Of a DNA stretch of 25,915 nt, positions 10,832-13,570 are shown piece by piece (the stretch's first letter is position 1; every line of letters begins with the position of its first letter). This DNA comes from a virus (taxonomy: Duplodnaviria > Heunggongvirae > Uroviricota > Caudoviricetes), in the IMG/VR virus record IMGVR_UViG_2529292922_000015, one strand, 5' to 3'. Made by a program: the position numbers.

Positions 10832-13570
10832 GCTGCTGCCTTAGCTTCTTCTTCGGCTTTAATCCGCGCCTGTTCCTCCTCATAATCAGTAAGAGGCTGG
10901 CGTGCCTTGGCTTTCAGCTCATCAAGGCGATCGCGCACTGTCTTGCGGTTGGCATCAATTAGCTTTGGAATTTCCTTCAGTTCAGCAACAAGGTCTTTGC
11001 CAAGACCATCGAGATATGTTTTCGTCTGCGCAACTTTATACGCCAGAGAAGCGATCTCCTTTCTGCCCTTTGCCGTTGTGATATCAGGCACAAAGGACAT
11101 AACTTCACGTTCAACCTTTTGAAGGATTTCTTCAATCTGGTCGGCAGACTGAAATACAGTCATTGCATTTGCTTTTTCAATAACAACTAAATCTGTTACT
11201 TCACTCATATATCCTCCATCAAAAAATTGCCCTCACATTGGAGGGCAAAGAAGATTTCCAATAATCAGAACAAGTCGGCTCCTGTTTAGTTACGAGCGAC
11301 ATTGCTCCGTGTATTCACTCGTTGGAATGAATACACAGTGCTTATTCGTACTAATAAAACACCCAATTTTCTGTTTCTTGGTTGTGTCCAAAGTTATATT
11401 CAATATCTGGTGTTGATGTATCAATATTCTTCATCCCATCAACAAGAGTTGATACAACAGCCAAATCTTGTTTGATTCTCATCAAATGGTATTTCTTTCG
11501 GCGCAATAAACTTTCAATGGCAAGTTTCTTCGTCGGGAATGCAAAAGATCTTTCTGCATTTTTTGCTACTTTCTTAATTGCATATCTATTTCTCCTTTGT
11601 TTCCATTCCTGTAACCACTGATTTGGTGCTGGTTTAAAATTAACAATCCAATGCGCAGGAACCAACCATGCATAATGCTCTGTCTGATGAAAAGCTATAT
11701 ATTGAAGTGCGAATATTTTGATCCCATCTTCTTCAACTGTCGCCTGGAATCTCCAGAAAACAGGCATTCCATCATGTTCAGTTTCTGATTCAGGAAAAGG
11801 TACGCTCCATGATTTTGTCATATCTCACCTCAAATAAGTGGTTTGCTGCCTAATTTCATTTTCTGGCGACCAACACAAGTCATCTTGCTGTCAGTTGTTT
11901 GGATTTCCGGTAGCCTGCCGCGTAAATGGCTACGTTTGGAAGACATACACCAGTTTCTGGTTGCTTATGTCCAAACTCATTCGCGTACACAATGGCCGCT
12001 CGCTCCAGATTGCGTCTGTATTCTTTCTGTTGCCAGATCACGTCCTGTGCTATGAACTTAATTGGCTTAGCGTCTTCTATGCGCTCAGGCGTTTCGTGAG
12101 TACCTTTAGCCTGAATCTGCGCTCTGCTTAGAGTAGGGCGGTGTAATACTTCTGAACTTATTGCTTCTTCGCGGGCCAGTACGCCGTTAGCTAATGCCTT
12201 TGCCTTTAAACGCTCACGACGACGAGAACGTGAATTGCCTTTGAACTGAGTTCTGCGTGTCATATAGACCTCCTGATGAACTTTGGTGGTGTGGTCGGTG
12301 GGAGACCCATTTCGACCTGTTTCGGCCTACTTCAATTCGGCAATAGTCCCGCAGGCCTCGCCGCTTTACGTGCGACATATTCCCGTCCATGAACCCTTCA
12401 CCACACCCCAAAGTTCACTTTGGTTATTGCGCTTTGTCAGCGCCGTAGATTCTTGCTTGAATCGTTGTATATTCACCGCCCTGGTGAGTAGTGCGTCCTG
12501 CTGATGTGTTTAGTATCACCGCCAGTGGTATTTGCGTCAACACCGCCAGAGATAATTTATCACCGCAGATGGTTATCTGTATGTTTTTTATATAGATTTA
12601 TTTTTTTGCAGGGGTGTGTGGCTTGGGAGGTGATCGAGAGATCTGAATTGCGATGTTTAGTGAGTTGTATCTATTAATTTTCAAATAAATACAATTGGTT
12701 ATGTGTTATTGGGTGAAGGGGATCGTGAGGTAAAGAAAACCCGGCGCTGAGGCCGGGTTGTGTGTTACTTAAGAACGAGTCCGTTTAAGGCATCAAGGAT
12801 TTTGGAAACATAACTTCCAAAAATGTAGGCGCAAAATGCGAACACGAAACTGACAACGACCGCAGATGCCTTGATGGTGATTTTTGCTGAGCTAATGCTT
12901 GTCTCAATACCTGACAGACGAGAATCTACAGATTTTATATCTGACTTTACTTCAGCGAGATCGCGCTTGATGTATTCAACATCAGACTCTAGCTTTGCAA
13001 CTCTAGCCTCAAGCATGTTACCTCCGCCGTTTCCTCCACCATGCCGTGAGTATGCATCATCAGTGGAATAGTGTCCAATTGGGCGAGATATGTTTTGATT
13101 TGGACGAAGCTGAGCAACCTTGTTATCTAAACTCATCGCGAACTGATCCTGTTATCTTCACGTCAAAAAACGAACTTTTTACATCAATTACTTCGCCTTT
13201 ATCAGGATTAACCAGTGATGCTCTAACTTCGAATATCCCAGGCTTGATAATTTTCACCCTTGGGAAGTTAATTCTCATAGAAGTTGATACGATGGTTTCT
13301 CCATCGTTGGCTTCTGCTACCGTAAAAAACTTATGGTTGGAGTACAGTTTTGTGTCAATTGGTATCGGTATTTCTTGAGCATTGAAAACCTCAATGCCTA
13401 TGGAATATTTTTTTGTAGCCTTAAGGCCGATAAAAAAAGCGCCAAATGATAGATCCACTTCATGGGAGTCTTTATCCATTTCATAGATAAGAACTGGAGT
13501 TACTGGGTTGCCTTCATCCATCGCAATCGGAATGATATAAGAAATACGTTCTTTAATCATTTACGTGTTA

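What the first reader, a model, noticed from the sequence alone, without database searches (positions are those of the whole stretch)
11880..12575. Mosaic junction inside the pL leader: lambda operators and promoter joined to a P22-type N and GACAA-loop boxB
OL1-3 and the start of the pL transcript match lambda, but within ~50 nt downstream the sequence departs from lambda, the boxB hairpin is GCGCUGACAAAGCGC rather than lambda GCCCUGAAGAAGGGC, and N has a P22 gp24-like C-terminus. The nutR candidate after cro has the same GACAA loop, so both nut sites match the N type while the operators match cI. This locates a recombination breakpoint between pL and nutL, with a second one between cro and nutR.
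Basis: partly seen in the sequence, partly recalled or inferred. Interest (0 to 1): 0.4.

Follow-up and report, generated by a model that had tools for sequence, protein, structure and literature searches.

The report
Lambda immunity flanked by H-19B-type N
This prophage has phage lambda's repressor switch flanked by the N antiterminator and nut sites of the Shiga-toxin-phage/HK97 type; the module swap is real, but it is already sequenced and annotated in HK97, mEp234 and HK106 and occurs in about 2% of complete E. coli genomes.

Summary
OL1-3, OR1-3 and Cro are identical to lambda, and cI differs at 3 of 237 residues. Lambda identity stops within 17 nt of the pL start on the left and within the last codons of cro on the right. 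Outside those points the DNA is 98% (N, nutL) and 94.5% (nutR, cII) identical to phage 933W. The nutR region is base-for-base identical to the experimentally studied H-19B nutR. The nutL boxB (GCGCUGACAAAGCGC) is identical to the P22 boxB, and the nutR boxB has the same GACAA loop.

Two parts of the interpretation need correction. N is the H-19B/933W/HK97 N (126/127 aa to 933W), not P22 gp24; it resembles gp24 only in the arginine-rich motif and the C-terminal 30 residues. The junctions were not made in this genome. HK97, mEp234, HK106 and PhiR5_2 run continuously (96.6-98.3%) through N, nutL, pL and the operators, and again through cI, cro, nutR and cII. GenBank EF120460 already annotates these nut sites. 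The same joints occur in 111 and 118 of 5426 E. coli genomes. This is a known, recurrent module boundary: ordinary, with low interest.

The parts
11880..12263 (-). N antiterminator gene, 127 aa, of the H-19B/933W/HK97 type. The arginine-rich motif is at residues 12-18 (RSRRRER).
   Evidence: ORF. Pfam PF25694 N_peptide, E 2.8e-15. phrog_271. 126/127 aa to 933W N and 123/127 to H-19B N. C-terminal 20/30 identical to P22 gp24.
12279..12415 (-). N leader with a long-range stem (CUUUGGGGUGUGGUG paired with CACCACACCACCAAAG) just upstream of the N ribosome-binding site. The coordinates of the arms are approximate.
   Evidence: The MFE and centroid folds of the 256-nt leader both contain the stem, z = -3.4. 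The 5' arm is one of the few patches shared with lambda. Equivalence to the lambda RNase III site is my own recollection and was not tested.
12429..12443 (-). nutL boxB, GCGCUGACAAAGCGC: 5-bp stem with a GACAA loop.
   Evidence: Sequence. Fold -8.5 kcal/mol, 0 of 200 shuffles as good. Identical to the P22 nutL boxB and to 933W, H-19B, HK97 and mEp234. Annotated as a putative nutL boxB in EF120460.
12448..12487 (-). nutL spacer with two small hairpins, CACC-AGGGC-GGUG and GAUUC-loop-GAAUC. The loop of the second hairpin is the only variable stretch among relatives.
   Evidence: Fold. Alignment shows variation confined to the 6-nt loop.
12489..12505 (-). Left module boundary: the first 17 nt of the pL transcript (AUCAGCAGGACGCACUA). 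Its core, UCAGCAGGACGCA, is invariant in lambda, P22, 933W, H-19B, HK97, mEp234 and PhiR5_2. Upstream of it the window is lambda-type; downstream it is 933W/H-19B-type.
   Evidence: Alignments A1 and A4. BLAST segment ends at 12473 and 12504. Partial hits in E. coli genomes end at the same place. The +1 position is taken from the EF120460 annotation.
12512..12540 (-). pL promoter. The -10 is GATACT. The -35 is TTGACG here, against TTGACA in lambda.
   Evidence: Promoter scan. Comparison with lambda, HK97, mEp234, PhiR5_2 and E2348/69.
12514..12574 (.). Operators OL1 (12514-12530), OL2 (12538-12554) and OL3 (12558-12574), each identical to lambda.
   Evidence: Lambda feature table. EF120460 feature table.
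12738..12759 (-). timm-like intrinsic terminator at the end of the cI operon.
   Evidence: Terminator scan. Homologous to the lambda and mEp234 Timm.
13568..14281 (-). cI repressor, 237 aa, with 3 substitutions relative to lambda cI (T3A, K71N, V223M).
   Evidence: 98% DNA identity to lambda.
14292..14355 (.). Operators OR3 (14292-14308), OR2 (14315-14331) and OR1 (14339-14355), identical to lambda, with pR at 14329-14357.
14382..14582 (+). cro, 66 aa, protein identical to lambda Cro.
14575..14582 (+). Right module boundary, in the last two codons and stop codon of cro. Lambda-specific bases end at 14574, and the first 933W/H-19B-specific base is T14576.
   Evidence: Alignments A2 and A5. BLAST segment ends at 14596 and 14575. 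Partial hits in E. coli genomes break at the same place.
14590..14635 (+). nutR: boxA-like CGCUAUUUU (14590-14598), spacer hairpin GGAC-AUUC-GUCC (14605-14616) and boxB UCGCUGACAAAGCGA (14621-14635).
   Evidence: Sequence. Fold. Identical to the H-19B and 933W nutR. Annotated as nutR boxA and boxB in EF120460. Two hairpins in the H-19B nutR are reported in PMC3526286.
14721..15020 (+). cII, 99 aa, of the 933W/H-19B/HK97 type. It contains the most recent recombination joint of this prophage (14871-14914).
   Evidence: Pfam Phage_CII. BLAST. SNP mapping against the two E2348/69 prophages.

Best explanation
The region is a standard lambdoid early-control region built from two modules that are inherited together.

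The inner module is the lambda immunity module: pL/OL1-3, the cI operon, OR1-3/pR and cro.

The outer module is the N-nut specificity module of the H-19B/933W/HK97 family. It consists of N and nutL on the left and nutR and cII on the right.

The two modules meet at short sequences that are conserved among otherwise unalignable lambdoid phages. These are the first ~17 nt of the pL transcript and the cro stop codon-to-boxA stretch. Homologous recombination at such conserved linkers, long ago and repeatedly, placed the same N-nut module next to at least three different immunity modules (lambda, H-19B, 933W).

The combination works because cI and Cro act on DNA upstream of +1, whereas N acts on RNA made downstream of +1. 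An exchange is viable as long as N and both boxB hairpins move together. After derepression, pL transcribes nutL and N. N binds the GACAA-loop boxB of nutL and nutR through its arginine-rich motif and, with NusA and NusG, makes RNA polymerase resistant to downstream terminators.

What is shown: the sequence identities, the boundaries, the hairpins and the existence of the same arrangement in known phages. What is inferred: function, from the near-identity to the experimentally studied H-19B N and nutR, and the recombination mechanism.
For: - Lambda module: all six operators are identical, Cro is 66/66 and cI is 234/237. DNA is 98% identical to lambda over 13572-14596.
- Outer module: 98.4% to 933W over 11800-12504 and 94.5% over 14575-14978. 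N is 126/127 to 933W and 123/127 to H-19B. nutR is identical to H-19B from the cro stop codon to just before cII.
- Boundaries are sharp. Identity falls from ~98% to unalignable within 17 nt or less, at blocks that are invariant in lambda, P22, 933W and H-19B.
- The same junctions are present in HK97, mEp234, HK106 and PhiR5_2. They are annotated in EF120460, and they occur in 111 and 118 of 5426 E. coli genomes.
- The motif occurs exactly twice, in the correct orientation, with 0.06 expected. The hairpins fold.
- Published function of the H-19B system: mutations in the arginine-rich motif 12-RSRRRER-18 abolish antitermination at the H-19B nutR/tR1, and the H-19B nutR has two hairpins (PMC3526286). 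The window's N has the same motif.
- The whole block 11351-15050 is 99.1% identical in one piece to an E2348/69 prophage.
Against:
- pL carries a -35 change (TTGACA to TTGACG). An IS21-family element interrupts the pL operon downstream of N. The prophage may therefore be partly defective.
- nutL has no canonical boxA next to boxB. The boxA annotated in EF120460 (CGCACUACU) lies 44 nt upstream of boxB and is only 'putative'.
- The text of Degnan et al. 2007 could not be read. Its content is inferred from the GenBank features of its records.
- Recombination at the conserved linkers is inferred from the pattern of identities, not observed.
Confidence: 0.93

Rival explanations
1. The junctions are recent recombination events that happened in this genome or its immediate ancestor: a lambda-like prophage acquired a foreign N-nut module, or the reverse, with crossovers between pL and nutL and between cro and nutR.
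For: The mosaic relative to lambda is sharp. This prophage has undergone a recent exchange: its centre (7991 to ~14890) resembles a different E2348/69 prophage than its arms do.
Against: That recent exchange moved N, nutL, the immunity region, nutR and the 5' part of cII as one block. Its right joint is inside cII at 14871-14914. The pL/nutL and cro/nutR joints are base-for-base the same in HK97, mEp234, HK106, PhiR5_2, E2348/69 and more than 100 other E. coli genomes.
Confidence: 0.03
2. The N-nut system is a genuine P22 module, that is, gp24 and the P22 nut sites transferred from a Salmonella P22-like phage into a lambda-immunity coliphage.
For: The nutL boxB 15-mer is identical to P22's (PMC11480772). 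Both boxB loops are GACAA, as in P22 nutL and nutR. The C-terminal 30 aa are 67% identical to gp24. The arginine-rich motifs align at 8 of 17.
Against: P22 DNA matches the window's N region only over 66 bp at 74%. gp24 is 100 aa against 127 aa and is 39% identical in the alignment, with a 40-residue central segment missing. P22 nutL has a canonical boxA, CGCTCTTTAA, next to boxB that the window lacks. The window is 98% identical to 933W here.
Confidence: 0.03
3. The pattern reflects divergence in place, or an assembly chimera, rather than exchange of modules.
For: Short patches of lambda-like sequence persist in the N leader (CACCA, GGTGA, CTTTGGGGTGTG). These could be read as remnants of common descent.
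Against: The flanks are 98% identical to 933W, whose immunity region is unrelated, while the centre is 98% identical to lambda. The same arrangement is found in independently sequenced phages and genomes, which excludes an assembly artefact.
Confidence: 0.01

Closest known systems
Wild lambda-immunity phages HK97, mEp234 and HK106, and PhiR5_2 (GenBank AF069529, EF120460/JQ182732, EF120461/JQ086369, PV340546; Degnan et al. 2007, Mol Microbiol 64:232, pmid 17376085)
   Same: The arrangement is identical: lambda operators, cI and cro flanked by this N, nutL, nutR and cII. DNA identity is 96.6-98.3% and continuous across both junctions. The nut boxA and boxB, pL, the operators and Timm are already annotated at the homologous positions.
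   Different: - The accessory genes between cI and Timm (the rexAB slot) differ: hicAB in mEp234, gp48/49 in HK97, one 762-nt gene in PhiR5_2, and a 145-aa plus 123-aa pair here.
- The window has two SNPs at and next to the pL -35.
- A different 6-nt loop is present in one nutL spacer hairpin.
- nutR boxA is CGCTATTTT, as in 933W and H-19B, against CGCTCTTTT in those phages.
N-nut system of Shiga-toxin phages H-19B and 933W (Neely & Friedman 1998 and 2000, pmid 9858702 and 11123680; Sen laboratory, PMC3526286 and PMC4499122)
   Same: N is 123-126 of 127 identical. nutR is identical from the cro stop codon to cII. nutL is identical except for the spacer loop. The module boundaries are the same.
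   Different: The immunity module between the nut sites is lambda's rather than the H-19B or 933W repressor and operators.
Phage P22 gp24 and boxB (NMR complex of the N-peptide with GCGCUGACAAAGCGC, as quoted in PMC11480772)
   Same: The nutL boxB 15-mer is identical and both nut sites have a GACAA loop. The arginine-rich motifs are related (GNSRSRRRERLKAKA against GNAKTRRHERRRKLA) and the C-terminal 30 aa are 67% identical.
   Different: The proteins differ in length (127 against 100 aa). There is no DNA-level homology beyond 66 bp. P22 nut sites have a canonical boxA immediately upstream of boxB, and the nutR stem sequence differs.
Phage lambda N, nutL and nutR
   Same: The architecture is the same: pL, nutL and N on the left, and pR, cro, nutR and cII on the right. 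The operators, cI and Cro are the same. A long-range stem is retained in the N leader.
   Different: The boxB is GCCCUGAAGAAGGGC or GCCCUGAAAAAGGGC in lambda. N shares only the RRRER core (E 0.007). Lambda has boxA CGCUCUUA(A/C) 8 nt from boxB.

Membership tests
Lambda immunity group (imm-lambda) | Six 17-bp operators OL1-3 and OR1-3 with lambda sequences and spacing | tested here: met
   All six are identical to J02459.
Lambda immunity group (imm-lambda) | cI and Cro proteins of lambda specificity | tested here: met
   Cro is 66/66. cI is 234/237 (T3A, K71N, V223M). Pfam Cro, HTH_3 and Peptidase_S24 match. Actual immunity to lambda superinfection is not testable here.
H-19B/933W/HK97-type N-nut module | 127-aa N with the arginine-rich motif 12-RSRRRER-18 | tested here: met
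   126/127 to 933W, 123/127 to H-19B and 98% to HK97. The motif is quoted in PMC3526286.
H-19B/933W/HK97-type N-nut module | nutR with boxA, a spacer hairpin and a GACAA-loop boxB; nutL with the same boxB loop | tested here: met
   nutR is identical to H-19B and 933W. nutL is identical except for a 6-nt loop.
H-19B/933W/HK97-type N-nut module | N-dependent antitermination at its own nut sites, with a reduced Nus-factor requirement | not testable with these tools
   Known only from the literature on H-19B (title of Neely & Friedman 2000, cited; assays in PMC3526286).
P22 gp24 (N) and boxB recognition class | boxB with a 5-bp G+C-rich stem and a GACAA pentaloop | tested here: met
   The nutL 15-mer is identical to P22's. 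nutR has the same loop with the closing pair changed from G-C to U-A.
P22 gp24 (N) and boxB recognition class | Orthology of the N protein to gp24 over its whole length, or at the DNA level | tested here: not met
   BLASTP aligns only the last 30 residues. MAFFT identity is 39% with a ~40-residue gap. DNA matches over 66 bp at 74%.
   HK97, mEp234, HK106 and PhiR5_2 are continuous at 96.6-98.3%. E2348/69 is continuous at 99.1-99.3%.

The most novel reading that the evidence does not exclude
The 13-17-nt block at the very start of the pL transcript (AUCAGCAGGACGCAC) may be more than a recombination linker. It is invariant here and in lambda, P22, 933W and H-19B, although the sequence on both sides of it is unalignable between these phages. 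It may be conserved because it has a function of its own, for example in promoter escape, or as the boxA-like element of nutL in the H-19B-type module, which otherwise lacks a boxA next to boxB. That function would then be what fixes the module boundary at this exact spot.
Probability: 0.3. Interest if true: 0.3.

Novelty: already known. Interest (0 to 1): 0.08.

Why it matters
It matters little for discovery. The finding is a clean example of lambdoid modular evolution, and the arrangement has been in GenBank since HK97 (AF069529) and the 2007 survey of wild lambda-immunity phages.

- **Annotation.** The prophage should be labelled imm-lambda with an H-19B/933W-type N and nut sites, not lambda-type or P22-type.
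- **Possible cross-talk (inference only).** Its N specificity is shared with Shiga-toxin phages. After SOS induction its N could therefore act on the early transcripts of co-resident Stx prophages, and theirs on its transcripts, even though the repressors are heteroimmune.

Tried and rejected
- **Rfam scan.** A scan of the whole window at gathering thresholds gave no match, so no curated family covers nut sites here.
- **Degnan et al. 2007.** The paper could not be opened by DOI or PubMed id. I relied on the feature tables of its GenBank records and on the citation seen.
- **Literature on H-19B-type N.** A search for a statement that H-19B-type N is P22-like (terms P22, boxB, GACAA, 933W) returned nothing relevant.
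- **Phage 21.** I had no accession for it, and it could not change the verdict.
- **Recent event at the junction.** I considered whether the junction was made recently in this strain. I rejected this because the recent exchange detectable against E2348/69 has its right joint inside cII and moved the whole N-imm-nutR block together.
- **Side lead, rex-slot genes.** PADLOC and Pfam gave only sub-threshold hits (CorA-like, E 0.004; XhlA, below the cut-off) for the 123-aa protein and nothing for the 145-aa protein. A single-sequence AlphaFold model of the 145-aa protein had mean pLDDT 58, too poor for a fold search, so none was run.

Full report
**1. What is there**

The finding's interval covers three things on the minus strand: a 127-aa ORF (11880-12263), a 242-nt leader, and the pL/OL region.

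- The ORF matches Pfam N_peptide (E 2.8e-15, above the curated cut-off) and phrog_271, 'anti-termination protein N-like'.
- OL1 (12514-12530), OL2 (12538-12554) and OL3 (12558-12574) are identical to lambda's. So are OR3, OR2 and OR1 (14292-14355).
- Cro is 66/66 identical to lambda Cro, and cI differs at three residues (T3A, K71N, V223M).
- pL (TTGACG-17-GATACT) and pR are picked up by the consensus scan.

**2. The nut sites**

- On the pL transcript, 58 nt from the start, lies GCGCUGACAAAGCGC (12429-12443).
- On the pR transcript, 39 nt after the cro stop codon, lies UCGCUGACAAAGCGA (14621-14635).
- The shared 13-mer occurs only at these two places in the window, each in the sense of its transcript. 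The expected number is 0.06, and no shuffle out of 100 reached two.
- Both fold as 5-bp stems with a GACAA loop, and the closing pair differs by a compensatory G-C to U-A change.
- nutR also has a boxA-like CGCUAUUUU (14590-14598) and a spacer hairpin GGAC-AUUC-GUCC.
- nutL has two spacer hairpins and no canonical boxA adjacent to boxB.
- The lambda boxB sequences at the homologous places are GCCCUGAAGAAGGGC and GCCCUGAAAAAGGGC.

**3. Where lambda identity ends**

BLAST against lambda gives 12473-12759 (88%, with indels near Timm) and 13572-14596 (98%). Against 933W it gives 11800-12504 (98.4%) and 14575-14978 (94.5%).

- **Left.** Base-level alignments place the switch inside AUCAGCAGGACGCACUA, the first 17 nt of the pL transcript (window 12505-12489). 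Its core, UCAGCAGGACGCA, is invariant in lambda, P22, 933W, H-19B, HK97, mEp234 and PhiR5_2.
- **Right.** The switch is in the last two codons or the stop codon of cro (14575-14582). The stretch GCATAA-TAAC-CCGCT is shared by lambda and the 933W type.

Both lie slightly further upstream than stated.

**4. What the flanking module is**

- N is 126/127 identical to 933W N, 123/127 to H-19B N and 98% to HK97 N.
- The nutR region, from the cro stop codon to just before cII, is identical to the H-19B and 933W nutR.
- nutL differs from them only in a 6-nt hairpin loop.
- This is the N-nut system studied by Neely and Friedman and by the Sen laboratory. PMC3526286 reports that mutations in the arginine-rich motif 12-RSRRRER-18 of H-19B N abolish antitermination at the H-19B nutR/tR1, and that this nutR contains two hairpins. 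Both features are present here.

The resemblance to P22 is real but partial.

- The nutL boxB 15-mer is identical to the P22 boxB (sequence also quoted in PMC11480772).
- The P22 nutR boxB has the same GACAA loop.
- The arginine-rich motifs align at 8 of 17 positions, and the last 30 residues are 67% identical.
- However, gp24 is 100 aa, lacks about 40 central residues, and shares no DNA-level homology beyond 66 bp.

'P22-like RNA-recognition class' is defensible. 'P22-type N' is not the best label.

**5. Is the junction new?**

No.

- HK97, mEp234, HK106 and PhiR5_2 match the whole of 11880-12600 at 97.4-98.3%. They run continuously through N, nutL, pL and OL, and again through cI, OR, cro, nutR and cII. 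They differ from the window only in the accessory genes between cI and Timm.
- GenBank EF120460 (mEp234, from the 2007 survey of wild lambda-immunity phages) already annotates pL, oL1-3, the putative nutL boxA and boxB, Timm, oR1-3, and the nutR boxA and boxB at the homologous positions. It even labels a 'boundary sequence'.
- In complete E. coli genomes, 111 of 5426 carry the left joint and 118 carry the right joint over at least 80% of a 151-nt probe. Partial hits break exactly at the two boundaries.
- H-19B and 933W, with unrelated immunity regions, join the same N-nut module at the same nucleotides.

**6. The recent history of this prophage**

- The window is a prophage next to ybhC. It is 99.5% identical to the E2348/69 prophage at 719-742 kb over 1-7991 and 14696-25915.
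- Its centre is instead 99.0-99.1% identical to a second E2348/69 prophage at 2.62 Mb. The matching segments are window 3216-8879 and 10830-15050, separated by an inserted IS.
- SNP mapping puts the right joint of this exchange inside cII, between 14871 and 14914.
- The whole block of N, nutL, the immunity region and nutR therefore moved as one piece. The pL/nutL and cro/nutR boundaries are old and inherited.

**7. Mechanism (inferred from the near-identity to characterised systems)**

- cI and Cro act on DNA upstream of the transcription starts.
- N acts on boxB RNA downstream of the starts.
- An immunity module can therefore be combined with any N-nut module, provided that N and both boxB hairpins stay matched. 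They are matched here.
- Short conserved linkers at pL +1..+17 and at the cro stop codon-to-boxA stretch provide the homology for the exchange.

**8. Verdict**

The feature is an already known arrangement of known modules, so interest is low.

Side observations are listed separately: an uncharacterised gene pair in the rex slot, the pL -35 variants, the IS insertion, and the recent block exchange.

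Noticed in passing
window 12765-13560 (minus strand): Lambda rexA and rexB are replaced by two overlapping genes of unknown function, located between cI and the Timm terminator. One encodes a 145-aa protein (13123-13560; phrog_5893; no Pfam or PADLOC hit). The other encodes a 123-aa protein with a coiled-coil region and a C-terminal hydrophobic segment (12765-13136; phrog_6136; sub-threshold XhlA and CorA-like hits). The same pair, 78% identical at the DNA level, sits in the same slot behind a different repressor in Salmonella phages epsilon34 (gp45/gp44) and g341c. 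It is also present in an E2348/69 prophage. The pair is a candidate repressor-operon exclusion cassette. A single-sequence AlphaFold model of the 145-aa protein was too poor (pLDDT 58) to search with.
   Followed up: partly
window 12533-12540 (minus strand, pL -35): The pL -35 hexamer reads TTGACG here, against TTGACA in lambda, HK97, mEp234 and PhiR5_2. The closest relative, the E2348/69 prophage at 2.62 Mb, has a different change, TTGGCA. Two resident prophages thus carry independent substitutions in the same promoter element, while all operators stay intact.
   Followed up: partly
window ~8879-10830: An IS21-family element (istA-like ORF 8964-9986 and IstB-like ORF 9983-10765, both on the plus strand) is inserted in the pL operon downstream of N. 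It splits a gene that is an intact 969-nt ORF in E2348/69; the remnant is the 130-aa ORF at 10816-11208. The insertion may block N-dependent expression of the recombination, xis and int genes.
   Followed up: partly
window 1-7991 and 14696-25915 versus 3216-8879 and 10830-15050: The prophage sits at the ybhC (lambda attB) site. Its arms are 99.5% identical to the E2348/69 prophage at 719-742 kb. Its early-left/immunity block is 99.1% identical to a second E2348/69 prophage at 2.62 Mb. The right joint lies inside cII (14871-14914). The left joint lies somewhere before 7991, in sequence shared by both prophages. This looks like an immunity-block swap between co-resident or related prophages.
   Followed up: yes
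window 12279-12415 (minus strand): The N leader keeps a long-range stem (CUUUGGGGUGUGGUG paired with CACCACACCACCAAAG) ending just before the N Shine-Dalgarno sequence. The 5' arm is one of the few patches still shared with lambda downstream of the boundary. From memory this corresponds to the RNase III site of the lambda N leader, which I did not verify.
   Followed up: partly
L007 12081-12149 (NC_011601.1, E2348/69): In the RefSeq annotation of E2348/69 (NC_011601.1), the N gene of the sister prophage is called only as a 69-nt 'regulator, incomplete' pseudogene. Another assembly of the same strain (NZ_CP059840.2) calls it 'transcriptional antitermination N peptide'. This is an annotation inconsistency rather than a biological difference.
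   Followed up: no
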